Assembly: GCF_006345805.1 (NCBI RefSeq)
Contig: NC_043004.1
Span: forward strand, 19,096,001-19,160,000
Length of the DNA stretch: 64,000 nt
Source of the DNA: Octopus sinensis
Lineage: Eukaryota
Direction: 5' to 3'
Under the pieces are notes generated by a model. The model searched no databases and was not told where the DNA came from. It worked only from the letters and a program-made list of their open reading frames with translations. Both the position numbers and the translations under genes were made by a program. Shown here piece after piece: positions 8,085 through 62,826 of this stretch (position 1 is the first letter of the stretch; each line of letters begins with the position of its first letter).

Positions 8085-9198
8085 CGTGTGTGTTCGAAAA
8101 TTTATGACAAGATGTCTCTTCGAGAAAGCAGTTGCTCACGCAAAGCAAAATAGAATTTGGGGTGTGCGGGGGACCAAATTTTGTAACAAAAACATGACAG
8201 TGAAAACAAACAATGTACATATATATCTAAATTCATATATATGTATATGTATACACATACACACACACACACACATATATATATGTGTGTGTGTGTATGT
8301 ATATATATATATATGTGTGTGTAGCTATGTGTGTTTGTGTATATATGCTTAAGGATAGGTGGATATAGTAGTGTATGTATATGTTTACTAGGGTGTAACT
8401 GTAGATATGTTTGGAGATGTATATTTAACTCCATGTATTTAATGCTGTGTATTTGAAGCTGGGCATAATGAAGCATACTTGTATACGCTCGAACATGTTA
8501 GTTTACATATATGTGTATGAGTACGTGTATACACACACACATATACACATACCATAAACTTATAAAGCTAGTCACTTTTAATGGCGAGTTTGTGTAAAGT
8601 GACTGTTTATCACAACAATATCAAATTACAACCTCAATCTGTATTTCAACGAGTGGTCAAAATTAAGAAATTATTTATGACCACTACCATCCCATCAGTG
8701 CCAAAATCTTATTCTCAGCTCTTTAGTATCTTATCTCTTTATCTCTTACTCTACTTTATATTCTTAATTCTTTTGTTTTTATCTTTTTTTTACTTTATTC
8801 TTATTTGGCTAATTCTTATTCATATGTGGTTCTAACTTTATTATCCTTATTTTTATTATTTTTTTTTCCTTTTATTACTCTTGTCTTTTGCTCCTATTGT
8901 CTTTTAATTCCAGTACTCTTGCTCTTTATTTCTTATTTTTTATTTTTTTATTTTTTTATTTTTTAAACTTTTAACTTTATTTTTTTTCTTTCTATCTTAT
9001 TTTCCCTCCTATCTTATACAAGAGAATTAAATATAAACTCATTCCAATCCATTTAACATTCACTCTACGCTGATTGGTTATACACTATGGGCAGATTTTC
9101 GAAATCCAATGAATCATGATACATTTATACAGTTAAGAAATTTTACAAATACACTTTTTCAAGGAGATATGATAAACATATTATAATGGGTAATACTA

Positions 9199-9385
9199 CA
9201 TGTACTTTTAATATTTTTTATATTGTGATGTGATTCTTTGGAATAACAATGTTTGCGGTTGAAGGGAGCTTTAAACCATCCCTTATATCAATAATACACT
9301 GGTGTAATAATGGATTGTTTATAAAGCTTGAAACACGTGTACCGCGATATCCTTTGTGTTCTGTTTTTAATTTTATTTGATATAT
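9199..9385 (+). repeat. Short hammerhead-bearing repeat, copy 1 (mutated core at 9255-9345)
   Basis: Homologous to 53750-53945; GCGG-TTGAAGG-GAGCTTTA...TAAAGCTT-GAA-ACACGTGT-A-CCGC. Confidence 0.75.
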
Positions 9386-9441
9386 AGATAGATAAACTTA
9401 CTTGGAAATGGATGCGTGGCGTTCAATCATACAATAATAGA

Positions 9442-9474
<33 letters not shown>

Positions 9475-9479
<5 letters not shown>

Positions 9480-9546
9480 GTAAATGTAATATGTGACAAT
9501 TATTCGGTAGGTACCGAATAATTGTTACATGTTACATTTACAGATA
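9475..9546. repeat. 35-bp-arm inverted repeat (hairpin)
   Basis: 9475-9509 vs 9512-9546, two mismatches. Confidence 0.9.
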
Positions 9547-12962: not shown

Positions 12963-15299
12963 GTGTGTGTGTGCGTGTGTGTGAGTGGTATTACAGATAA
13001 ATGACCGATTTACAACGCCGATATGGCATTCGCATAATATATATAGATTCATTATCAGGAATCTATAAATATTACACGAATATTAATTTACATAACTTTA
13101 GTCTTACGGTTTTTATAATTTTGTCTTTTTGTGCTTTTATAATATCATTCAATTTATATTACGGACTTTGATTTCAGATTATATGTGTTATGCTTATTGA
13201 GACCATATTTATAATATTTTTATTATCATCGTATTTATATTATTCTATGACAGGTATTGGCAATTTTGTTATATGCCCATCATTTCTTGTTGAAGTTTTA
13301 GTCAGATATCAGCCCAGATCAGGTAGGATTATTTTCGAGATTGAGGTCAAATTTATTAGATAGAAATTTTCAATAAAATCAGATTGATGCATTTCTGCAT
13401 GTCTGTTTACTAGATATCAAAATATTAAACTAGAAGGAAAACACCTTTCGTACCAACATAGCATGCTTCATTTTGCATTATGTTGAACATAGAGTTCTAG
13501 TTTAAAAACATTTCATTTACTTTTAACATATTGAAAATGAAAGCGATAAGTCAATACTTTGCAGGATCGCAAAACAATTTGCTTGTTTTAGGGATAGAAC
13601 CTTTTGCGACGGCAGCGTGTTTCCATAGATTGGGAGAAAGGTTCGAGAGTGAAAATGTGCTTGAACACCATATTCTTTGTGAGTTATTTTCGATGTGTCA
13701 TCCTTATAGTGTCTTAAAATACATGATCAGTTAAAATGTAGATGTTATTGATTTATGTATACGGAATATTTTTGCAAGGAAACCTTTTAGCAAGGCTAAA
13801 TAGTAACAGCTATATTTGCAAAATGCTTAAAATAGAGTTTAAAATATAGAGTAGATAATTGTAGAAATATATACAGAATAGTGCTTGACGCCACCGGTGA
13901 GATTTCTTTTTTCACAGCTCTAGATTACATTTGCTGCAATCATTAAACAAACTTTACTGTCAAAAGTTGAAAGTTAAAGATATATTTAAAAGAAATGATA
14001 AACATGTAAAATTTTCCATGTCAGAGGCATTTATTTTCTTTCTATATACATTACGCAAAAAAAATAACAGAAAAAGCAGTGCCTAATATATTTTGTATCC
14101 TATATAAATGTAATATTATGTGTGTGTCCGTACGTATCCGCATATGAAACTATAGTCGCATACCGAAATAAATATATGCAGATGCCGGTGAGCGTAGTTG
14201 TTGATGAAGTTTTTAAAGTATATTTGATACTATTTGCATGATGTTATATTTCAATATGAATATATAAAAAATAGATGTTAATATAATAATAGAAGTTTGG
14301 AGTTAATTCTCAATATGTATTCGCTTTGAGAGCCAATGATAGAAGAAATGTCTTTAACAGAGAATTATTATTGGAGTGCTTCAGATTTATCTGACATAAA
14401 CTTACAAAACGACGTCATGAGTTATTGCTGCCTCCATAAACGTAAAACTCAGTTAAGCTTTAACAAAATACGATTACAAATAATGTGCGACAATTTGTCT
14501 TTATGGCCAAGATCTGGCTGGATGCAAATTGACTCCTGCTTCAACTGGTTTAGCGATATTCATTAACACCATTAAATAACATGAGATTTAATTTGACTTG
14601 TTTTCGTCTTATTCAGTATTCTCAGGGTTATATTAACTTTTTGTTTTCATAGATTTTGTATAATGTCAGGTTTGTAAAAGATGGTTGCTTTCTCTTTGAG
14701 ACAATTACCAAGACTGCTGACTCTTGAAATCAATTGTTTCCCTTTTAGTCACGGCTTCTATTCTTTAGCGTGATGATTGTATCAGATTTTAAAATAGTTT
14801 TCTTGTAGGTATTATAATTAAATCATTTAATTTTCTAAGAATGAATAGCTTAAATATTTCATGATAAACAAAACAATATCAGCTAACACGATTTTAAGTA
14901 AGCACACTTTTCAATGTGCCTGTTGTAATTCTTCACGTTAGCTACGATGTTATTTAATTTCATTGCGTGTTTAATGAAATTAAAATTATATAAATACTAA
15001 AAAGACATAACGACTGAACTCCTCACTGCATTACCATAACACTTCGATCTATAATATAAGAAAATATTGAGTAGTGGGGAGAAGGCAAAACTAAATTTCG
15101 ATATTCACAGATCCAATAAAATTATCAATGTACAAATCAAAAGTAGCAAGGAAACATAATTGTCTCTCCCCGTTGTGGATGAAGGTGATTTACTTCTCTT
15201 CAGATACATTACTGGTCATTAAAGCTTCTAATTTAATCGGCGTTTATTATTGATTTTGTCCTGGTAGTTGGAACCTCTAAGTTAATCGTCATTGTGTAT

Positions 15300-18128: not shown

Positions 18129-18584
18129 TATATAATTTTAGCTTTAATAAAAGAAGCATAGTACTCTACGTTCGGTATTTGAGTACTATTTTTTCCACCT
18201 TGCATTTATGTTTTCCTTACTTGTGTATATATATATTAAGCTGTGCCCAATTACTGCTTCAGCGAAGCAAGGTAAAGTGTTTGCATATACATAGGCACAA
18301 TGAGTCAACTGGTTGTCTAGACTAACATTGGTTAATCTGTCTCACTTTTCAAGCCCTGTGTGCGTATGTGTCCGAGTATATGTGTGCCTTTCAGAAAGTG
18401 TGTATGTTTGTGTGTTGTTGCAAAGAAAATTATATAAATGTAAATTTTTCGCAAAAGTGTTTAAAACTGTTTGAGTATATTTTCCCGTTTAAATGTAAAT
18501 TCCAATATAATGTTTATTCTTTAATTCTGTCTTTATATTGTATTAAATCATTTTCTTTTATTGTTCCAGAATATAAGAAAAGAC

Positions 18585-18635
18585 ATGTGTCGTGTTGTGT
18601 GTAACCCATTGACAATAGTTTTGATATCAATGCAG
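18585..18635 (+). CDS. Putative first coding exon (signal peptide) of class B1 GPCR; exon 18570-18635
   Basis: Acceptor TTTTCTTTTATTGTTCCAG (AG 18568-69), ATG 18585, MCRVVCNPLTIVLISMQ, donor CAG|GTAAGT at 18636; phase 0 matches the exon at 53972 and gives MCRVVCNPLTIVLISMQVYNSLA-FNQT. Confidence 0.65.
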
Positions 18636-18939
18636 GTAAGTAAATATTGGCAATATACTCTGAACCGTAAAATTTTCAAATGTCATTTTTATATCGTAAA
18701 TTCTCGCAATTTATTTCGGGGATGTAAGTGTAAATATTTCAAGACATGCTGGTTTATGGCTGAGACCTAAATTGCAGATTACCATTCAACTTTTCCTGAA
18801 ACGGAAGCGAAAACGCAGCTGTGTTGAATGCCGTGTATGGCAGTCACAAGCAGTTGTCATGGAAACCGAAATGCACGTGCATCTCGTGGCGGTGTGGGAT
18901 ATAAAAATCAACTTGAACTGCGTTTCTGGCATTCGTAAT

Positions 18940-21067: not shown

Positions 21068-22062
21068 GTGACCCGATTGTCAACAGCGCAGAGAGAACAA
21101 GCCATCGCCCGATTGCAAGCAGGACATCGTACCCTGGTTGTTGCGAAAACTTACAATGTCCATGTCAGCACCATCTATCACCTACAACAGCGATACAACA
21201 ACGCCAACAGCACTGCAGACCGAGCCCGCAAATTCCCCAATCCCACCCCGGGTGACACCACCCAGGCAGGACCGCTCCATCCACCTTGTACACCTCCGTG
21301 ATCGCTTCAGATTGGCTAGCATGACAGCTCGCGAGACCATTGGCACTGGACAGTGACCTATCAGCGACGACACGGTACGACGTCGACTGACCACCAACAG
21401 CCAGCGTTGCCGCCGTCCTGCTCGAGGGCGTCCTCACTACCCGCTACCGTTAGGTGCAACTGCAGTAGGCTACACAGCATTGACATTGGCGACATCAACA
21501 ATGGATATCGATAGTCTTCTCTACATTTCTCAGATGGTAGAGTGAGGGTATGACGTAAAAGGTGAAGAGAGACTTCTGGGGTGGCCAAAACCTCATGGTT
21601 TGGTGTGCTATACGCCTGAATCAGAGAATTGGACCACATGTGTTCTAAAATGTTGATGCAGGAGGAGAGAATGGTATTACAGCTCAGGGCTACGTTGACC
21701 AGATCCTACGACCTCACATAGTGCTTTTCTTTACACGCCATCATAGCCACGTGTTCCAGCAGGGCAATGCTCCCTCCCACACAGCCAGGTTCACCATGGA
21801 TTGCCTGCATCTGCACAACAGCAGAACCATGCCGTGGCTGGCTCTCAGCCCGGATTTGAATCCAACCGAACACCTGTGGGATGAAATCCAGAGGCGACTG
21901 AACGAGGTGGTTCCAAGACCGACAACTCGTGTAGAACTGGAGGCAATTTTCCTCAGGATCTGGGCCGAAGTGCCAATGGATTTTGTGAACTGCCTCATGC
22001 ACTCCATGTACCGACGATGTCTGGCCGTTTTGAACACCCAAGGAGGGCATACACGGTATTGA
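21068..22062 (+). pseudogene. Tc1 transposase pseudogene
   Basis: TRLSTAQREQAIARLQAG (HTH), FQQGNAPSHTAR, WLALSPDLNPTEHLW, GGHTRY; frameshifts, stops and loss of catalytic Asp residues. Confidence 0.9.
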
Positions 22063-40201: not shown

Positions 40202-41340
40202 CACGGTGTCTCAAAATTCATTATCTATTTTGAGAAATAATTGGGGTAATGAAAAACTGATTTAAATTTGAATAGTATATTTATTTCAAAGTATATGCTG
40301 CAAAGAATTAGTGTTCCACAAGTGATTATCAGTGTTACTACATATCTCAAGGCGATAAATAGCTTCCTGGAACACACTTTCCAGAATTTGGGATGCGATG
40401 TTTGGAACTGCATCATCAATAAAATTTCAAAATGCTGCTACATCTCCAATTTTATTTGTGTATTCCACTGACTTAACGAACCCCCAAGCGAAAAAACAAA
40501 TCTAATGGTGTTAAATTGGGTGAGTGTGCTATCCACGGTTACATTTCTCCACGACAAATACAACTAGGAGGGAAGCGAGTGCCAGGACAGTTACGTACGA
40601 TTTTTGTATAATGGCACGGCGCTTCAATCTTTTGAGAAACTACCGTGTCAAGAATGCCACCTATGAGAATTTGAAGCTCAAGAAATTGTTCAAGCATATC
40701 AAAATATACTTTTCTTTGGACCGTAGTTTCTGCGAAGAAGAAAAATCCATACACATTTGACTTAGTCATAATAAGCCAAACATTCACTTTCGGTGTATTT
40801 CGTTCCCATTCAAGAAATTCAGTTGGCCTCTCACTAACCCAAATGCAATAATTATCACGACTAACCTTTTCAAGTGTTTGGAAGTTCGCTTCATCACTGA
40901 ACAGAGTTTCGTTGATTAACTTGCCACTTTCAGTTTGAAGCTCAGCACATATCGCTGATCTGGTTAGATATTTGTAAGTTGTGAAAACCTTTAATGTGAT
41001 GATCTTTTTTGATCACATCACTTCGTAGGATTCTGTTGACTGATGCATATGGAATTTCTAACATACTAGCTGCTCTACGAGTCGATAATTGCGGATCGTG
41101 TTTGCATTGCTGACTATAAATTGATAAGACTTTGATTTTAGAGAAATTAAATTGGCTAGCTATTGCGGTATTCATAAATTTTCTTATGGTTTTAGAATTA
41201 TACATAGATTAAATAAATAAACAAACAAATAAATATCTTTATCAATGTGTATTTGAAGGACGTCTCTTCCTTAAAGGAAAATAATTGCAATGGAAATTTT
41301 AAACAGATACAATCAAATAATCGGCAAGCTCACACCATGT
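40202..41340 (-). mobile_element. Degenerate mariner/maT-like DNA transposon (right boundary approximate)
   Basis: NVYGFFFFAETTV...YFDMLEQF, HSPNLTPLDLFF (cf. WPPRSPDLTPLDFF), STRRAAS; CACGGTGTCTCAAAA TIR-like left end. Confidence 0.7.
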
Positions 41341-44270: not shown

Positions 44271-45432
44271 TCCAGTAGTTTTATTTGTATAGCGTGCTTT
44301 CACTTCACTACCAAGCGCAGCTCTGCCTACCTTGGGTATGTGCTGTGATTTGATGTGATGCTTTTATGGTTACTGTATTGAAGGTGTTTTGCGTTGGATG
44401 TGCCCAGTAGTGCAATTTTCTGTATGTTATATATATTTGTAAGTCCTGGTGTTTATGTTAAGTATTTGTCTGAATATTTTTGATCATACCTAATGCGCCT
44501 ACTATGAAAGGAATTGTTTCTCTTTTTTGATTCTACATTCGAGTTACCTCTATTTCCAAGTCTTTCTATTTTGAAATTTTCTCCATTTCTTTTAGAGACA
44601 CGTTGTAATCTGCAGTTATTGATACATAATTAGAAAGCATTTTTTCTTCATGATCTCTGACAACTATATCTGGCCTATTGGCCTAATTTTTGTATGTGTG
44701 TGTATTGGCATATCACAGAGTATGGTTGCTTTCTCGTTTTCTGTGACCTTTTCTGGTATCTGCCTATACCATTTTTTTCCAGTTGTTATTCCATAGTGTT
44801 GGCATATCTTCCAGTGTATATAGGTCCCAACGCTGTCGTGTCTGTGAATATATTCCTTCTTAGCCAGGACTGGGCAGCCAGAGATAATGATTTATTGTTT
44901 TTTTATCCATCTCCACATATTCTGCAGTTACTTGTTATGTTTCTCTGCAAGATATGTCTTTGGTAATTTCTGATGGGGAGGCTTTGGTCTTGTGCAGCAA
45001 TTAAAAATCCCTACGTCTCTGCTTTGAGTCCTGAACTTCTCAACCATTGTTGGGATTTTTCTCTGTCTATTTCTTTTGCATTTAGTTTAGTCCAGTATTT
45101 GCCATGAAGGGGCTTTTCTTACCATCGTTTTATCATGGTCCGTCGCTGTTCTAGTTTTAGCTTGGATTTCATTTGTTATAGCATTTGTTGTTTCTTCCTT
45201 TTCTTCATCATATTTGTTAGGTAGTATGATTTCTTGTTTGTATTCGTCAGCTTCTTTAAATACTGAGTGTTTTTGTATTGCTCGTGTTTTGCCGTTATTT
45301 GTATCAGTTTTCCTTGCTTCTGAAGCAGATATTTTTTCAGTTCTATGGTGGTTATTTTATAATAGTTTTCCAGCTTTATAAGCCCTCTACCAACTTCTAT
45401 ATGTTTTATATATAGCCTTTCTATGTCAGATT
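44271..45432 (-). mobile_element. R4/Dong-clade retrotransposon 3' part (CCHC + restriction-like endonuclease), ending in (TAA)n
   Basis: RLYIK..GRGL, ETxGFLIAAQDQ, CRICGDG, EYIHRHDS, RPDIVVRD, IPFIVGALGMI motifs on the minus strand; degraded. Confidence 0.85.
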
Positions 45433-45905
45433 CCGAACGCTTCAATTCGCAAACTCCGCGGAGCTTCGAAATCTCATGAGTACGAAACTCTCACTCTAAC
45501 TCGGATCTAGTTTTAAATAAACTGAATTGAAAATATTTTAAAAATTCCCAACGTTTTGGTATTACTTTAATATGGTCTAAAAAAAAACTTCTAAGTTTCC
45601 AAATTTTTGGAGTTCTTTTAAATTTGAATTTTCAACTGTTAGCATATAACAAATTCTCACCCAGATATGATCCCCATACTGTATGTTCCAGAACCAAATG
45701 AAGGGCAGATTTTCAATTCCGGCATCCTCCTGATTCCAAAAAGGTGTAATATGTCTATGTAGGGCAAATGTAGACTGAGATATAGGCGACCCCGATTGAC
45801 AGACAGAATTTAGAGTTTATTTTAATATATATATTTATGTGTGTATGTATATGCGTGTGAGTTAGTCTGTGTGTTTTTGTGCAAGTGTATATACATACAT
45901 ACATA

Positions 45906-49459: not shown

Positions 49460-51480
49460 CATACATACATACATATACATACATACATACATACATTCAT
49501 ACATACATACATGCATACATACATATAATATGTGTGTGCGACTGTCTGTGTATCCATAATTGTATACTTTTTAAAACCATATATTTCCTCTGTAAGATAC
49601 TAAAGTGTTTATATTTATCTGCCTACACTATAAGCGGCTTTATTGTAACTGTCATAATTAATTTAACGTATAGTTAATACCTTTTGGCGTTACTCTTTTG
49701 TCCGCACTAACACTCAGACTTCATTTTCATTCCTAGCTGACGGGTAGTAACTATATCACCTTTCAATACATTTATTTACAAATTTTGCGTATGTTTATGT
49801 TTTTACTTCACTTTCAGAACGGGCGAGATAGAGACTTGACATATTTAACATAGATGGAACACTTAATATAGTTTAGAGGTTATATATACTTACATATTTG
49901 CAAACATTCATACCATACTTACATATATACATACATACATGCGCAACTCGAGATTTCTCAAAAGTAGCTGTCCCCTCATATACAATCCTTCTCCACTTGC
50001 TACGGTCAATAGCTAAGCCCACCCATGTGTCAGGAGAGATGCTAGCATCTCTTAAGTAAGCCTTTATACCTATTTTTTGGTTTATGTGGAGGTCGTTCTC
50101 CTTTAGCTAACTCCCCATAAAAGAGTTGTTTTGGCATCCTTTGAATCTTTCATCATGACCAGATGACCACTCCATCCGAGCCTTTGCTTCAACACAAAAG
50201 CTTCTATACTTTCACACCAAGAGCCTTCCAATATTTCAAGATCACTGATGCGGTCTTTCCACTTAATGCCATAGATCCGTCTGAGACACATCTGATGGAA
50301 ATATTCCAGTTGTTTAAGTTGGCATCGATATGTGACCCTCGTCTCGCAGGCATAAAGAAGAGAAGAGAGCACACACGCCTTGTACACCTTTATCTTTGTC
50401 TTCCTGCATATGTATCGCCAACTCCAGAGACACATTTCTAGCCTTTCGAAAGCATCACTTGCTTTCCTAATTCTGTATGGAATTTCATCATCCAAATTGC
50501 TATATCTATTAACAGTGCTTCCCAGGTAGACAAACTGGTCAACTACACTAAGTCGTTTACCATACACATAGATATTTGGTTCACGATACTACTTACCAGA
50601 GGCAGGTTGGTACAGTTTTCTTGAGACTGACTGCCAAACCTAAGGCAGCGCAAGCATCGTAGAATGCATTCAAAATGTGTTGCACATCAATCTCTATGTG
50701 CACTACTAGATCACAATCATCTGCATACAAAAGGTCACTTTGTTTTTGCAGCAAAGCGCCTGATATTAAATATGCTGCAAGAGGTTCGATAATGGAGGTA
50801 AACATCATACCTACAATTTCTGAACGCAATACAGAAAATCATCGCAAAATATATGGCAAGTAGGGTCGGTGCCCGAATACCCCCCCCCCCCGCTCCGTTT
50901 CACTCCATTTTGTATTGAGATAGGCTCTAACATTAGAGCAAATCAGGCAAGTATTACAAAGACAACCTTTAATACATAACTAAAAAGAAACCAATATCAA
51001 TGCTGACTTCTGGGAACATCTTGCATCAGATAGGGAGCTGCAGAAAAGTGTGATTGTTACTGGGTTAAGAGTCTGATAGCAACAGAGTTGCATACACTAA
51101 GTTGAAACGTGCTGTAAATATATGGATGATGTGAACATTGTGCTTGAAAAGGACACGAAAGAGTAGATTTTGTGTAACCAGTGTAGTCGCATCGGCTTCT
51201 CAAAGGCAGTCCTACTCAGCCACAAGCGTGGGCACGGAGGCGTCCCCCGTCTTCCAATGCGATATCCAATATGTTTTTGTCGTGCATCATGTGTAGCAGA
51301 GTGCATAAGGGACCAGTGGATTCACTCGTAATTGTAGGTCCCAACACTAAGAGGGTCAGGCTGTTGCTGGAAGATTGACTTGTGGAAGATGTGGAATGAC
51401 TTGCGGGTCTATAGAAGGCATTCAAAGCCATATAAAACGACATCAGTGACTGGGAGACTAAACGTGAGATATTTCTTACA
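48830..51480 (-). mobile_element. Fragmented RTE-clade LINE (RT 49950-50830; possible endonuclease remnant ~51060-51480; zinc-finger tail ~48830-48960)
   Basis: LLYADDCDL, FVYLGS, RIRKASDAF, VLSSLLYACET, LRRIYGIKWKDRI, WSGHL motifs; CKSNEGLKRHVKIH. Confidence 0.8.
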
Positions 51481-52540: not shown

Positions 52541-52747
52541 TAATATTGTAAATGTACTTAAAAGAGAATAAATTAATTATAAATTTTGTATAAAATTTTA
52601 CCATAACTGGTTTTTCACACTGGCTACTTGATATTTTCCGATATAGATTTTCTCCTTATATTTAATGACACACACGCACTCACACACACATACACACACA
52701 CACACAACACACACACACACACACACACAGATATATATATATATATA

Positions 52748-53511
52748 TTTATATATAGAGGGCATTATTATACATACATGCCTCACGCTAAGAGGGACAT
52801 CAGTCATTTCTACCAAAAAATTTTACTAATCATACCCAATGCAATTTTTCAAAGCAAGACATTTAAAAAATGAATTTAGTCTTGTATCACCTGTGATTTC
52901 GTACTTACCGCAGAATTGCGACCGTACTCATCAGCAAGACTGATTCTGAATATATCATAAATAAACGACCTGTACCGCCGAAGTCGAACAGCCATCTGCT
53001 CTCTCCCAACGAAGCACATGGAGAAGTTTACATATTATACATCCGGTAAATGGCGGGCTTCTTCGAATTGCATTTCGGATAGGAAAAGTTTTTTCGGAAT
53101 AAATTTAAATCTAACAATTAAGGATAACTTCTTAATAAGGAATCTTAACAAGAAATTATCAGGTAGATAGCGTGAAAAACCTCATAAGAGAAAAATTTCG
53201 AAAATAATTCTTTCTTATTGAACATATTAATTTTTTAAATGTCTTGCTTTTTTTAAATGTCTTGCTTTTTTAAATGTCTTGCTTTGAAAAATTGCATTGG
53301 GTATGATTAGTAAAAAAATTTTTCGGTAGAAATGACTGATGTCCCTCTTAGCGTGAGGCATGTATGTATAATAATGCCCTCTATATATAAATTAATATGT
53401 TCAATAAGAAAGAATTATTTTCGAAATTTTTCTCTTATGAGGTTTTTCACGCTATCTACCTGATAATTTCTTGTTAAGATTCCTTATTAAGAAGTTATCC
53501 TTAATTGTTAA
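52748..53511 (-). mobile_element. Non-coding hammerhead-bearing element: ~480-nt monomer plus inverted junction copy (retrozyme/PLE pLTR-like)
   Basis: Arrangement A(52750-52870)-M-B(53112-53232)-rcA(53266-53390)-rcB(53389-53510), flanked by (TA)n. Confidence 0.8.
52878..52941 (-). ncRNA. Type I hammerhead ribozyme, canonical core
   Basis: Minus strand AGTCTTG-CTGATGA-GTAC[ggtcgcaattctgcggtaa]GTAC-GAA-ATCAC AG GTGAT-A-CAAGACT: all three stems pair, all core bases present, AUA cleavage triplet. Confidence 0.9.
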
Positions 53512-53513
53512 AT

Positions 53514-53548
<35 letters not shown>

Positions 53549-53592: not shown

Positions 53593-53822
53593 ATATATAT
53601 ATATATATATGCGATTGTAAGCGGGTTAGTGAGAAGACATTTTAAAAAGACTCCAGATTAATTGGGAATTAGCTAACTTCAAGATTAAAATCTTAAATAG
53701 ATCATTTTCCCCATCGTCAGCGCAATACATGTAGATATACATAGTAAGGTATGTACTTTTCATATTTCACATGTACTTTTCATATTTTTTATATTGTGAT
53801 ATTATTCTTTGGACTAACAATG

Positions 53823-53906
53823 ATTGCGGCTGAAGAGAGCTTTAATAATACACTGATGTAATAACAGATAGATTGTTTATAAAGCTTGAAACACGTGTAC
53901 CGCGAT
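53823..53906 (+). ncRNA. Type I hammerhead ribozyme with palindromic stem III, sense to the GPCR
   Basis: ATTGCGG-CTGAAGA-GAGCTTTA...TAAAGCTT-GAA-ACACGTGT-A-CCGCGAT; GUA cleavage after 53899. Confidence 0.8.
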
Positions 53907-53971
53907 ATCCTTTGTTTTCTGTTTTTGATTTTATTTGATATATATATATATCTTTTTTCATGTATTTCTAG

Positions 53972-54371
53972 GTTTACAATTCCCTTGCATTTAACCAGAC
54001 AGAAACTTCTACGAGTCCAAATAAGGAGGTACGTTTCTGCCGATTCAAGGATAAACTGATGTCTTACGACGAGTTTAAAAATAAAACGAAATTCATGTGT
54101 TTCTACTATTTATTTCGAAAGAAAGAGAAAGGCCAATCTTGTACAGTGTTATCAAGACAAGAATGTGAAAGATGGAAGACATGCAGTTTGGATGCTGTAA
54201 AATGCTGCGATCGAATGCTTAAGATGTCTGCCGATGATGATAATTCAACAAATTCCAGTAGTCTCTCCTGTCATTCAAATTGGGATGGATATGGCTGCTG
54301 GGACAAATCTTTTGCGAATAAAACAGCTAACATCAAGTGTCCTGGTTTTGCTTCGACACATTATTTACCAG
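53972..54371 (+). CDS. Class B1 (secretin/calcitonin-CGRP receptor-like) GPCR extracellular hormone-receptor-domain exon
   Basis: Acceptor TCTTTTTTCATGTATTTCTAG, donor CAG|GTAAGC; open frame VYNSLAFNQT...CERWKTCSLDAVKCCDRM...CHSNWDGYGCWDKSFANKTANIKCPGF with the C..WDG..CW....CP signature and several N-glycosylation sequons. Confidence 0.9.
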
Positions 54372-54457
54372 GTAAGCAATAATTTCGTGTTTTTGCAAAA
54401 GTAATTGCAAACAATTGTATCATATACACAAGCACACACTTACATACATATATATAT

Positions 54458-56323: not shown

Positions 56324-57136
56324 ATACACAGAGAGAGAAAAACACAGAAAGAAGGAGAGAAAAAAAAAAAAATGCGTGCAGTAGCTAACGAATCAACATG
56401 GCGATCTGATTTCGGCCAGAGGTCAAAGATCAAACATGAGACGCGAGAGCGAAATAAGGGGAGATAATAGGGTTGATAAATGGGTTGAGGGACCAGCTAA
56501 TAGTGCGTGGGAGGGGTCTGGATGTGTGTATGTATAGGGTTGGTGTATGTATTAGTATGTATAAGGGTGTGTGTGTGTGTGTGTGTGTGTATGAGAGAGT
56601 ATTAGTGCGTAGGATTGGTCTGGACGTGCGTATGTATGGGGTGGTGTATGTATTAGTATGTATTAGTATGTATTAGTACGTATTGGTATGTATAGGTGTG
56701 TGTGTGTGTGTGAGAGAGTATAAGTGCGTATGCGGGGTCTGGACGTGGTATGTATAGGGTTGGTGTAAGTATTAGTATGTACTAGTATGTATTAGTACGT
56801 ATTAGTATGTATTAGTTGGTGTGTGATTAGTATGGCACATCATATGTGATGTGATGTGTAAAGTCATGTGGTGTAGTGAGGAGAGAGGGGGAGGGGGAGA
56901 AGAGGGGGAGGAGAAGGGGGAAGAGGAGAGGATGGGGAGAAGGAAGGGAGGAGGGGGATGAAGGAGGAAAGAGGGAGAGGGGGAGAGAGAAGGGGAGAGA
57001 GAGGAGTGAGGGAGCAGAGGGAAGGGGAAGAGGGAGGGGGGAAGAGGGAAGGGGAGTGTAGGGGTGAAAGGATGAAGGACTGAAGAAGTAGGGGTCGGGG
57101 GGAGAAAGGATAGGTGAGGAGGGGGGAGAGGGGGGT

Positions 57137-58728
57137 TAGATGAGGAGGGGGGAGAGTTGAGACCAAATGGCGTATAAGAGCGAAGAGAGAAGATTAATTC
57201 CTGTTCACGGCGCAAACGGGAATCCGGATGGCCTCTGTGTAAGGACAAACCGAACACAGATAGGTGTTGCAAGGAGTGACCGGTGGAGCGGAAATGGCGT
57301 GAGACCGGTGTGTCGTTCGCAAGGTGGATGTCACGAAGGTGTTCCGCGAACCGGTCAGCCAAGCGGCGTCCCGTTTGTCCGACGTACAAGGAATTGCAGA
57401 GAGAGCAAGAGATGCAATAGATAATATTGCTGGAGGTGCAGGTGAAGGAGTGGATGATGGGATAGGGTCGATGGTGGGTGCTAGTGAGGCGGGTGGTATT
57501 GGAGAGGTAAGGGCAAGTGCGGCAACGTGGGCGGGAGCAGGGGAACGAGCCGGGTTGGGAGGTAGGGTCAGGGAAGGAGCTATGGACCGAAAGGTCTCAA
57601 AGGTTGTGGGCTCGTTTGAAAGAGGGGAGGGGTCGGTTAGGGAAGAGGTGTGAAGTGGACGGGTCGGACTGGAGATGACGGAAAGCTCGAAGAATGGTGC
57701 GTTGGAGACGTAGGGTCGTGGGGTGGTAAGTGAGGGGAAAAGGGAGGCGGGAGACTACAGGGCGGGTTCGGGGAGAGAGAGCAGATACACGGTCCACGGA
57801 CCGTGCTCTGGCAAGGGCGGTGTGGATAGTGGTGAGGGGGTATCCACGTAGGGTGAAGTGGTGAGCCATACGTTGAGACTGAGTCTCAAAGTCATGGTCG
57901 TCACTACAGAGCCTACGTAGACGGAGGAATTGGGAATAGGGGATGGAAAGCTTGGTGTTTTCTGGGTGGGAGGAAGAGAAGTTGAGGTATGAATGTGAGT
58001 CTGTGTGTTTGTAGTGAATGGAGGTGGTAAGAGTGGAGTGAAGAATGCTAACCGAAATGTCGAGGAAGGAGACAGAGGTGTTGGAGATAGTGGAAGTGAA
58101 GTGGAGGGCTGGATGGAAAGATTGGACGAAAGAGAGGAAGGAATCTAGATGTTCGCGGGAGAGTGAGGTGGCACCGATAATGTCGTCAATATAACGGCCA
58201 TATAGTTCAGGAGTGGGACCAGTGAAATTAGAGAATATTTGGGCCTCAACATAGCCAACGAACAGTTGGGGCCCATTCGCGTTCCCATGGCCACTCCCGA
58301 GACCTGATGGTAGAACTCGCCCGCGAACGAGAAGCAGTTCAGAGTAAGGACAAGTTCGGCCAGACGAATGAGTGTGGAGGTGTCAGGTACAGGGTTAGAG
58401 CGGAGGTCAAGAAAGTGTCGAAGGGCCTGCAGTCCTTCGTGGTGAGGGATAACAGTATAGAGGCTTTGGATGTCCATAGTAAAAAGGATTTTGGAGGAGC
58501 CGGGAGGAAAGGAGAAAGAGTTGAAAAGCCGGAGAGCATGGTTGGTATCGTGGATGTGGGAGGGAAGAGATGCCACTAGGGGGGCAAGGACACGGTCGAG
58601 GTATTTAGAGATGAGCTCCGTGGGGCAGTTACAGGCGGAGACGATGGGGCGGCCAGGGTTGTTGGGTTTGTGGATTTTGGGGAGGAAGTAAATGGTGGGG
58701 GTACGTGGGGTTCGCACAATTAGTTTGG
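57137..58728 (-). pseudogene. PLE reverse transcriptase + Zn-finger + GIY-YIG endonuclease, disrupted
   Basis: YFLPKIHK..GRPIVS, MDIQSLYT, GVAMGTRMGP, RYIDD, FLD, CSRPRCRTC, IIYCISCSLC..YVGQTGR, RFAEH, GLN; small frameshifting deletion near 58265 and stop at 57597-99. Confidence 0.92.
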
Positions 58729-58748
58729 ATATATATATATATACACAC

Positions 58749-58833
<85 letters not shown>

Positions 58834-58922
58834 CATGTGTGTGTGTATGTATGTATGTATGTATGTATGTGCGTATGATCACTGAAATGTAAAGCTGTAG
58901 AAATTTGTATGTGTGTGATATA

Positions 58923-59840
58923 CCGTGAAATGGGGTTACTTTGAACGCCATTCAGAGTAACCCCGATCACTATTTCCGGCAGTAAGCAAGCTGCTACCGC
59001 TCAATTCCACAAATATACTTCAACCACTTGACTTGGCGTTATATTGGCCCCTGAAAAAAAAGTTGGAGAAAAATCTTAAATTATTCGAAGGCTAATAGCA
59101 GGAAAAACTCAAAGACCTTAACTAAAGATGCATTTCCTGCTCTGCTCACACAGCTACATGCTGCTCTCTTTCCTGAAAGTGTCACTCCCCGCTAGAATCG
59201 GGAACTGTAGAATTCACCCTTTTCATTCGAACAGGTTTTGGATGAGCTACCAGATCATGAAGTGAGCAAAGAAGACGATGAAGTCATCAATGTAAGAATT
59301 CCGGATGTTGTGCTAGGAATGCTAATGTCAATGAAAGGAGTGGATGAGAGCAGATCAAAGAAGAGACGAAAGAAATTGAACGTTAACTCTGGCAAAAGTA
59401 TAAGTGCTGAGGATATCAGTGCTTCTGGAAGTGAAATGATGGCCATCAATTCCTCAACAATTATAGAGAATCATAGAGAAAGAGAGCAGCAAGAGAATTT
59501 GCATGATGAAGAGCTAATCTCTGTTGATAGCGATATTTCTATGAATGAATGTAACAGATATTCCGGCACTTCAGACATGGCAAGAGCAGAAAATACAGAA
59601 AGTGAAAGTAGTTTTGTTGGAAACTTTGTCATTGTGGGGTATGAAGGGCATTTCCCGGTTAACATCTCAACTGGAAGTGACGGAGCACTTGTCTGTCATC
59701 ATTGACAAAATCTAAACAGATAGGGTGGAGGTGGCCACTGAAAGAGAATAAACTCGTCTTCGACTAGAAAGGTATGGTAGAAATGAAAACAAAATGAAAT
59801 CATTGCAATAAGAAGTCTAGAACTGTTCAAAGTTTCACGG
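58923..59840 (+). mobile_element. Internally deleted pogo/Tigger-like (DDE_1) DNA transposon
   Basis: TA-flanked TIRs CCGTGAAATGGGGTTACTTTGAAC / GTTCAAAGTTTCACGG (8-nt deletion); NSTNILQPLDLALYWPLKKK motif; acidic C-terminal ORF 59238-59705. Confidence 0.8.
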
Positions 59841-61468: not shown

Positions 61469-62826
61469 CAGGATGTTTAAAAAGATTTGATATCATTTGA
61501 GATGTAATTATCACAAAAACTACATAGTTAAAGCAGATGAAACTAAAGAGGTTTAATGTTGAGCAATATAAGATTTATCCCCCCCCCCCAAATTGAGCGA
61601 GAAATTCGAAGGTATGTGGATTCCATGAACGATTTTACAAATGTTCAATATGCGCAACGCCAGAGACACGGCACACGTCAGGTCGGTAGACTAGCTCATC
61701 CCAACCATGTCTTGGGTAACAGTTTCCAGTGCGGTGGTGATTATGTTCTCGAGTTCCTCTAGGTTTCCAGGAACAGGGGGACATAGACAAGGCCATTAAC
61801 ATAGCCCCAGAGAAAAAAATCGCAAGGTGTTGGGTCAGGTGAGTGTGGCGGCCATTTTAACAGCACATTGTCTTCATCACCAGCACGCCCGATCTATCTC
61901 CCTCGCAGATTGTCATTGATATAAGCCCGCAAAATGAGCTTCCAGTGAGGTGTAGCCCCGTCCTGTTGAATAACGAGGTCTTCATGTTCATTTGCAATTA
62001 TCTCATCCATTAGCCAGTTCTGAAGCATTTGCAGATAAACATCTCCGGTCACATTTCCCTTAAAGAAAAATGGGCCATGAAGAGGCTTCTTGGAGATGGC
62101 GCAGAACACATTTATTTTGGTGAGTCCCTCTCATGCTCAACTGTGGCATGGTGATTTTCTTCGCCCCAAATGCAAATATCATACTTATTGACTTTGCCAT
62201 TCGTATAGATTGTGGCTTGATCCCTGAAAACAAGACGTTCCTTGAACTGGGCTTCTTCAAGTTCCTCTTGCACGTCAACACAAAATTGTTTGCGCTTTGG
62301 CTTGTCACCTGCCGTTATGACCTGAATAAGCTGCGGCTTGCAGGGTTTCATTAGCAAGCATTTCCTTAGGACGCGCCAAACTGTTGTTGCAGGAACCTAC
62401 GTTTCCAAAATTGTTTTTCTTATGAATTTCTTGGGGCTTTGCAAGAATTTTTGGCGAACCTACTCGATTGTCTCTTCCGGTATTAGTGGTCGTCTAGAAC
62501 CTTTTGCTCAGCACAGACAGCCTTCCACTTGGAATTTTTTGTGCCATGTCCAAATCTGCATTGCTTTTGGTGTCTTTTTAGAGAGAACTCTCTCACAAAT
62601 GCATGCTGCACAGTCTTGTTCGACTGTGTTCGAGCATACTCCAACACACAAAACATCTTTTCTCTTCCAGTGGATGCCATTTCTATACCCGAAAAGAGAA
62701 ACTTATCAAACATTAAACATATTTTGACCTGTTTCTGCACATGCTGTTAAAATCTGAATTCATTTGACAAAGAACTGGCAAATTTATTAGATTTCGAAAT
62801 GATGTCAAGTTTTTTGAAACGCCCTG
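61469..62826 (-). mobile_element. Full-length mariner/maT-like transposon (dead), TA TSD
   Basis: TIRs CAGGATGTTTAAAAAGATTTGATATCATTT vs CAGGGCGTTTCAAAAAACTTGACATCATTT; fragments REKMFCVLEYARTQS, HGPFFF, QQDGATPHW, WPPHSPD, CDFFLWGY; frameshifted. Confidence 0.9.

What the first reader, a model, noticed from the sequence alone, without database searches (positions are those of the whole stretch)
53750..53971. Sense-strand hammerhead cutting 72 nt upstream of the GPCR splice acceptor
Seen: intact core CTGAAGA/GAA, 7-bp stem I, 8-bp stem II (G-U closing pair), palindromic stem III ACACGTGT and a GUA site at 53899, with the acceptor AG at 53970-71. A second same-strand copy at 9255-9345 has two core mutations. 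Known: minimal hammerheads with palindromic stem III work as dimers, and intronic self-cleaving ribozymes (e.g. CPEB3) can compete with splicing. Inference: cleavage at the end of a 35-kb intron could modulate receptor mRNA output; the core is intact only in the exon-proximal copy, which could reflect selection or just younger age.
Basis: partly seen in the sequence, partly recalled or inferred. Interest (0 to 1): 0.75.

Follow-up and report, generated by a model that had tools for sequence, protein, structure and literature searches.

The report
Transposon hammerhead stranded beside splice site
The self-cutting RNA motif just before this octopus receptor exon is real, but it is one of several hundred leftover ends of a Penelope-type jumping gene, and it likely sits there by chance with little or no effect on splicing.

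Summary
The anatomy is confirmed: a type I minimal hammerhead, cut site after 53899, 72 nt before the acceptor of a 35.3-kb intron of an octopus CGRP-receptor-like GPCR; RNA-like contigs show this splice. The motif is the 5'-truncated end (pLTR) of a Penelope-like retrotransposon with Hydra-clade motifs: at least 250-279 exact genomic matches to either half, and a decayed full element with two such pLTRs around RT and endonuclease. An intact core is usual (50 of 59 copies), and the core decays like its flanks (2.9% vs 3.5%), so there is no sign of selection. The second copy (9255-9345) lies outside this intron. In a dimer the intact core would cut the partner, not 53899. The monomer is predicted about 1% active-fold; chance predicts a few such acceptor-proximal copies (assumed acceptor count). 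An unrelated young hammerhead element lies 0.9 kb upstream, antisense. The scan noted other Penelope-linked hammerheads in this genome; a sequence look-up found no note on this family. Residue: both branch-point candidates 3' of the cut lie in the transposon tail. Cleavage and conservation in distant species are untested. Ordinary; low interest.

The parts
53769..53951 (+). 5'-truncated pLTR fragment of a Penelope-like element with Hydra-clade motifs; ends in (TA)n; 17-nt deletion and 4-nt insertion in the loop II arm
   Evidence: 82-83% to both pLTRs of the full element at G000:C4:73.97-73.98 Mb
53751..53767 (+). 17-nt direct duplicate of the fragment's 5' end (53771-53787), a truncation-junction feature
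   Evidence: read from the sequence
53823..53906 (+). type I minimal hammerhead: stem I 53823-29/53900-06, core 53830-36, stem II 53837-44/53880-87, GAA 53888-90, palindrome 53891-98, cut after A53899
53925..53939 (+). two TTGAT branch-point candidates (A at 53928 and 53938), inside the transposon tail and inside the AG-free zone 53885-53969; use not shown
   Evidence: YTRAY consensus recalled
53952..53971 (+). pyrimidine tract and acceptor AG, outside the element
53972..54373 (+). exon of a calcitonin gene-related peptide type 1 receptor-like class B GPCR (HRM domain)
18572..18636 (+). upstream exon (start codon and signal peptide of P0003/P0005/P0006); its donor opens the 35.3-kb intron
8275..9492 (+). 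longer 3' fragment of the same element with the second hammerhead (9253-9348; C3U, A9G); outside the 35-kb intron
52741..53524 (.). unrelated young two-armed repeat with its own hammerhead on the minus strand (core starts at 52934); context, not part of the same element

Best explanation
The hammerhead is the ribozyme motif in the terminal repeat of a Penelope-like retrotransposon; this 183-nt truncated copy likely landed by chance in a (TA)n run 20 nt before the acceptor, and it is predicted to cut rarely or not at all, so the intron would be spliced normally. Shown: motif, repeat family, parent element, splice junction, neutral decay. Inferred: the parent's GIY-YIG endonuclease nicked the TA run and its RT copied an uncut RNA, starting about 45 nt 3' of the cut site and stopping after about 180 nt. 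Inferred: stem III (2 bp plus 4-nt loop) needs a strand-swapped dimer, which in the parent is supplied by its two pLTRs and perhaps its protein; the lone copy has no such partner.
For: Family: 932 first-look candidates, 41 scored matches; 250 exact matches to the 3' 24-mer and 279 to the 5' core 21-mer, controls 0; on C1-C6 38 of 88 3' sites have the exact 5' half too, capture-recapture about 650 copies. Parent: two same-strand pLTRs, 98.7% identical over 464 nt, flank a broken RT and a C-terminal endonuclease at G000:C4:73.97-73.98 Mb (RVT_1 E 0.0045, below the Pfam cut-off). All 8 of 8 endonuclease hits of at least 79% identity on C1-C6 lie within 11 kb of a hammerhead copy (one search read). 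14 of 15 close pairs are inverted, back to back; 46 of 80 copies end in a TA/CA run. Neutral decay: core intact in 50 of 59; 9 of 312 core sites changed vs 3.5% of flank sites, Fisher P 0.75. Folding: active-like monomer 0.9%; the homodimer folds as a double hammerhead in which A15.1 pairs with the other molecule. Spliced junction present. Literature: monomeric min-HHR showed no cleavage, dimers low (PMC4209133); the PAc HHR needed its protein and uncut RNA was the main insertion template (PMC11167929); introns cut by a hammerhead still splice (as described in PMC2995048).
Against: No cleavage assay. Of three same-strand copies within 61 kb only the exon-proximal one is intact (third copy A15.1G); chance of both others being broken is about 0.14 at a 63% intact rate (rate). 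Three copies in 61 kb is unusual (P 0.0004-0.008) although the family is not clustered genome-wide. The tail next to the exon is present in DNA contigs of three coded organisms, so the insertion is not private to this assembly. The 80-copy sample was chosen by an exact 3' 24-mer, which favours younger copies, and only the 5' six core sites could be scored. Spliced contigs show presence, not efficiency. No covariation was found among 22 copies (0 of 26 pairs).
Confidence: 0.86

Rival explanations
1. The ribozyme is passive, but the transposon tail has been co-opted as the branch point of this intron, so the insertion now matters for splicing without cutting.
For: The only YTRAY matches 3' of the last upstream AG (53883) are 53925-29 and 53935-39, both in the tail; only 20 nt of non-element, non-TA sequence precede the AG; these 50 nt are unchanged in three DNA runs.
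Against: Branch-point consensus is weak and recalled; no lariat data; the same tail is in all copies; microsatellites also lie within 170 nt of 2 of 8 other fetched acceptor stretches of this gene. Compatible with the best explanation rather than exclusive of it.
Confidence: 0.25
2. The host uses the ribozyme, CPEB3-like, to cut the intron and lower receptor mRNA.
For: Sense strand, intact core, stems I and II predicted to form in local context (0.85-0.95 for 53750-54100); only intact copy of three local ones.
Against: No excess conservation; monomer about 1% active-fold, and stem I is lost in a longer context (0.01 for 53600-54373); no partner in this intron; CPEB3's ribozyme lies 9,931 nt before its exon with a 2-3 min half-life (PMC10274809), whereas 72 nt takes about 1 s at a mammalian 3.8 kb/min; a cut 5' of the candidate branch points leaves branch point, tract and exon on one piece.
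Confidence: 0.06
3. The two window copies pair in cis as a double hammerhead across 44.5 kb.
For: Same strand, identical palindrome and compatible stem I.
Against: The upstream copy is outside this intron and may be outside the transcript; about 12 min of transcription apart; by strand-swap geometry the intact core would cut 9341 and the doubly mutated core would face 53899.
Confidence: 0.02
4. It is a non-autonomous retrozyme (ORF-less tandem hammerhead repeat).
For: Most copies are short and non-coding.
Against: Long copies run into an endonuclease and an RT frame, and two pLTRs flank them; only 1 of 15 close pairs is not back to back.
Confidence: 0.03

Closest known systems
Hydra-clade Penelope-like elements, e.g. 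Hydra-1_Obim (Craig et al. 2021, PMC8557442; section 11, passages, supplement rows seen)
   Same: RT then C-terminal endonuclease; RW(A), DKT, Cys linker, CxxC and CxH motifs; (TA)n target; canonical hammerhead at the 3' end, with the same ctgaagag start in Hydra-1_oBim; RT motifs line up by eye with Hydra-1_Obim.
   Different: A different family: other stems, helix II arm of about 50-65 nt, stem III ACACGTGT (not found in the supplement's Hydra rows among its 4 ACACGTGT hits); long Asn-rich insert between RT and endonuclease and a long 3' region, so longer than the typical under 3 kb; RWA instead of RWK, CxCX3-4C instead of CxCX5C.
[quoted passage not shown]
   Same: Long helix II (8 bp), small palindromic helix III, mostly single dispersed copies, inverted pairs 100-700 bp apart, a few in full elements.
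   Different: G-U rather than the conserved G10.1-C11.1 if stem II is read from 53837; if G53837 is the unpaired base after position 9, the closing pair is A-U. Helix I is 7 bp, longer than 4-5.
CPEB3 intronic HDV-like ribozyme (PMC10274809; passages seen)
   Same: Self-cleaving motif on the sense strand of a large intron.
   Different: CPEB3 is described as highly conserved, monomeric and fast (2-3 min), 9.9 kb from the exon, with a measured effect; this motif is one of hundreds, neutral in decay, dimer-type, 72 nt from the exon, untested.

Membership tests
type I minimal hammerhead | core CUGANGA ... GAAA ... UH with stems I and II, open end in stem I | tested here: met
type I minimal hammerhead | short palindromic helix III that favours a strand-swapped dimer | tested here: met
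   P(15.1-16.1) 0.03 in monomer; dimer MFE is the double hammerhead, -47.3 kcal/mol; prediction only
type I minimal hammerhead | G10.1-C11.1 closing pair | tested here: not met
   G-U in 22 of 22 aligned copies
type I minimal hammerhead | covariation in stems | tested here: inconclusive
   0 of 26 pairs with two-sided change; copies too alike and chosen on the 3' half
type I minimal hammerhead | self-cleavage | not testable with these tools
   needs a bench assay
Penelope-like element | pLTRs with hammerhead flanking one RT-endonuclease frame | tested here: met
   C4 element, 464 nt at 98.7%; 8 of 8 endonuclease hits linked
Penelope-like element | RT and GIY-YIG domains by profile | tested here: inconclusive
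   RVT_1 E 0.0045, under cut-off; no Pfam hit for the endonuclease frame; YIG motif seen by eye; protein search of an RT piece found nothing
Penelope-like element | 5' truncation, inverted partner copies, optional 3' tail | tested here: met
   14 of 15 close pairs inverted; 30 of 80 continue into a tail, 46 end in TA/CA, 4 other
Hydra clade | RWK, DKT, CxCX5C linker, CxxC and CxH around E and N, no CCHH | tested here: inconclusive
   RWA, DKT, CxCX3-4C, CQLC, CMH read by eye in broken frames against section 11: close but not exact
Hydra clade | (TA)n insertion | tested here: met
Hydra clade | placement in an RT tree | not tested
   reference sequences were seen only as text in a supplement
host-domesticated intronic ribozyme (CPEB3-like) | core conserved beyond neutral expectation | tested here: not met
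   (within-genome test; one copy gives little power)
host-domesticated intronic ribozyme (CPEB3-like) | kept at the orthologous site in distant species | tested here: inconclusive
   contigs show only the tail 53922-53951 in three coded organisms with near-identical exons; they break before the core
host-domesticated intronic ribozyme (CPEB3-like) | effect on mRNA level | not testable with these tools
   spliced form present; efficiency unknown
retrozyme | no coding parent; head-to-tail short units | tested here: not met

The most novel reading that the evidence does not exclude
The transposon tail became this intron's branch point, and the hammerhead 29-39 nt upstream of it cuts only when a Penelope transcript (trans dimer through the ACACGUGU palindrome) or Penelope protein is present, so that transposon activity throttles splicing of a neuropeptide receptor.
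Probability: 0.04. Interest if true: 0.75.

Novelty: new member of a known kind. Interest (0 to 1): 0.14.

Why it matters
As it stands it adds one more hammerhead-bearing Penelope family to an octopus genome and shows that such motifs near genes are common there. If the novel case held, it would be a transposon-triggered ribozyme switch on host splicing and a direct test of what Penelope hammerheads do, which PMC8557442 calls unclear. The genome's hundreds of copies also allow a simple test of selection: are intact sense-strand copies depleted in introns?

Tried and rejected
Rfam gathering scan: 0 matches. Pfam on the neighbouring PLE frames by first coordinates: 0; weak RVT_1 and GIY-YIG at E 0.001-0.005. 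Protein search with an RT piece: nothing. Covariation: none. A first neutral comparison (11% flank divergence) was rejected because subfamily-diagnostic columns inflate it; one search removed 27 such columns and 28 of 80 copies that were truncated or rearranged near the core (21 dropped). L027 was mis-oriented and is not counted there. Genome-wide clustering of the family: not seen (0 pairs under 61 kb, 1.0 expected). Sequencing runs: no RNA holder listed on record; run kinds are guesses and all are contigs, so ends at 53899/53900 and expression levels could not be read; none was listed in table 6. Only 8 of 24 listed runs were laid. Whether 9255-9345 is transcribed with the gene was not settled. 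Lunse et al. 2017 is not held, seen only as a citation. PMC3365414 passages gave nothing useful. Searches for a prior description: 'Penelope-like, hammerhead, octopus' and 'hammerhead ribozyme, intron, octopus' gave PMC8557442 or its preprint as the only PLE paper; supplements of other papers and Repbase/Dfam were not seen and may list this family. Scan look-ups by sequence, place and words found no note on this family.

Full report
1. Observation. The motif is as described: stem I 53823-29/53900-06, CTGAAGA 53830-36, stem II 53837-44/53880-87, GAA 53888-90, ACACGTGT 53891-98, A17 at 53899, AG at 53970-71. A loose type I descriptor finds 2 sites in the window and 2 in total over 20 shuffles. 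Rfam reports nothing at gathering score. The exon 53972-54373 has an HRM domain and is 99% identical to an Octopus CGRP type 1 receptor-like protein. The preceding coding exon is 18572-18636, giving a 35.3-kb intron. Contigs of X14, X9 and X12 carry that exon's end as the loose end at 53970 and the next exon at 54371; contigs of X7 and X13 also align exactly over 53970-54371. Run kinds are guesses. The second copy (core 9259-65, C3U and A9G) lies upstream of exon 18572-18636, so not in this intron.

2. What it is. The 181-nt query has 932 first-look candidates in the genome, 40 scored. Exact patterns give 250 matches for the 3' 24-mer and 279 for the 5' core 21-mer, with 0 for reversed controls. 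On C1-C6, 38 of 88 3' sites also have the exact 5' half; capture-recapture gives about 650 copies among the better-kept ones. Following long copies led to a decayed full element at G000:C4:73.97-73.98 Mb: two same-strand repeats, 98.7% identical over 464 nt, each with this hammerhead, flank a broken RT frame, an Asn-rich stretch and a C-terminal endonuclease with a YIG motif, interrupted by later insertions. Pfam support is weak (RVT_1 E 0.0045; none for the endonuclease). Independent linkage: all 8 of 8 endonuclease hits of at least 79% identity on C1-C6 lie within 11 kb of a hammerhead copy, 7 on the same strand upstream of it and 1 inverted (one search read by eye). Of 147 sites on C1-C6, 15 adjacent pairs lie under 4 kb apart and 14 are back to back. 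Of 80 fetched copies, 46 end in a TA/CA run, 30 continue into a tail, 4 other. These are the pLTR, inverted-copy and tail signatures of Penelope-like elements described in PMC8557442 (passages) and PMC4209133 (parts 1-2 of 4). The motifs RWA, DKT, a Cys linker, CQLC and CMH, and the TA target, fit the Hydra clade; Hydra-1_Obim is a visible but distant relative. No tree was built. The window copy spans 53769-53951, is truncated at its 5' end, and has a 17-nt deletion in the loop II arm.

3. Is this copy special? Eighty copies were taken as the first 80 of the 250 3'-half matches, without regard to the 5' core. Twenty-one were truncated or unalignable at the core; 50 of the other 59 have CTGANGA intact. 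After dropping 7 more rearranged copies and 27 subfamily-diagnostic columns, core sites differ at 9 of 312 (2.9%) and flank sites at 3.5%, Fisher P 0.75. The window copy has 2 of 89 private changes, the upstream copy 2 of 103; 20 and 8 of 52 copies are less diverged. A copy keeps all 13 core sites with probability about 0.63. So the intact core needs neither selection nor youth. Against this: a third same-strand copy 6.6 kb left of the window has A15.1G, so the exon-proximal copy is the only intact one of three (about 0.14 by chance), and three copies in 61 kb is unusual in a family that is not clustered overall. Position: with 650-3000 copies and an assumed 150,000-250,000 acceptors, 2-14 sense-strand cut sites are expected within 100 nt of some acceptor. 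A second, unrelated and much younger hammerhead element (2,701 first-look candidates, 92-100% identity among full-length hits) sits on the minus strand 0.9 kb upstream, which shows how common such insertions are here. DNA contigs of X1, X2 and X6 (three coded organisms) run from 53922 into the exon with 0, 0 and 1 differences: the tail is shared among close relatives, but the contigs break before the core, and no distant species was seen.

4. How it likely works. Predicted: stems I and II form, stem III does not (P 0.03); the active-like monomer is 0.9% of the ensemble; two copies fold as a double hammerhead through the 8-bp palindrome. In that fold A15.1 pairs with U16.1 of the other molecule, so an intact core cuts its partner. 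With the 9.3-kb copy as partner the cut would fall at 9341, while 53899 would face a doubly mutated core; the copies are also about 12 min of transcription apart at a mammalian rate. Published PLE motifs behave accordingly: no monomer cleavage and low dimer cleavage (PMC4209133), and protein-dependent cleavage with uncut RNA as the main insertion template (PMC11167929, passages and section 3 part 2). The family agrees with the last point: 76 of 80 copies end in a microsatellite about 45 nt 3' of the cut site or run on into the tail, so their templates were uncut there (inference). Even a cut need not stop splicing: PMC2995048 (passages) reports that hammerhead-cut introns splice and only a fast HDV ribozyme blocked it (Dye 2006 and Fong 2009, seen only as described there). 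The CPEB3 race model uses 9.9 kb and a 2-3 min half-life (PMC10274809, passages); here 72 nt is about 1 s, and the cut lies 5' of both candidate branch points. Committed reading: a passive transposon relic, 0.86.

5. What remains open. The AG-free zone 53885-53969 holds two TTGAT branch-point candidates, both in the transposon tail (consensus recalled). The tail may therefore serve as branch point (0.25), with or without cutting. The boldest reading, a cut triggered in trans by Penelope RNA or protein, is not excluded (0.04).

6. Verdict. Real motif, known kind of element, probably an unlisted family (searches; Repbase and Dfam not seen). PMC6765202 (passages) states the general case. The scan has noted other Penelope-linked hammerheads in this genome, none matching this sequence. 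Interest 0.14.

Noticed in passing
window 52741-53524; hammerhead on minus strand, core from 52934 down, cut site near 52884: Young two-armed repeat between TA runs with an intact type I hammerhead (CTGATGA core, 4-5 bp stem III); 2,701 first-look candidates, best copies 98-100% identical. Resembles the retrozyme-like repeats in earlier scan notes; identity with them not tested.
   Followed up: partly
L038 3223-3409 (G000:C8:19089223), 6.6 kb left of the window: Third same-strand copy of the family, with A15.1G and a stem II mismatch; three copies in 61 kb, unexplained.
   Followed up: partly
window 56800-58950, minus strand: Separate Penelope-like remnant (RT and GIY-YIG frames, weak Pfam hits) in the next intron, split by a microsatellite; no DNA match to the hammerhead family's element.
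   Followed up: partly
L039 8200-9960 and L040 400-3250; L032 4300-5355: The parent element has a long Asn-rich insert between RT and endonuclease and over 1.5 kb of 3' sequence; related endonucleases at 60-70% identity sit in open frames up to 842 aa, 17,005 candidates.
   Followed up: partly
window 53812-53836: The pLTR carries GGACTAAC about 20 nt before the AG inside the hammerhead core, which recalls the intron 3' end overlapping the Drosophila virilis Penelope hammerhead (PMC4209133); upstream AGs make it unlikely to serve the GPCR acceptor.
   Followed up: no
window 53639-53733: Another short dispersed repeat just 5' of the fragment (high summed depth in DNA runs).
   Followed up: no
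window 13241-13345: Matches an extra N-terminal exon predicted in P0001/P0004 at 80% but absent from P0003, P0005, P0006; may be a prediction artefact. RNA-like contigs extend 98-341 nt 5' of the junction, more than the 65-nt exon, so a further 5' exon exists, not located.
   Followed up: no
window 21649-22062 (+), 40539-41012 (-), 62112-62396 (-); 45176-45490 (-), 50103-50588 (-): Frames that look like Tc1/mariner transposase remnants and LINE fragments (labels recalled, not tested).
   Followed up: no
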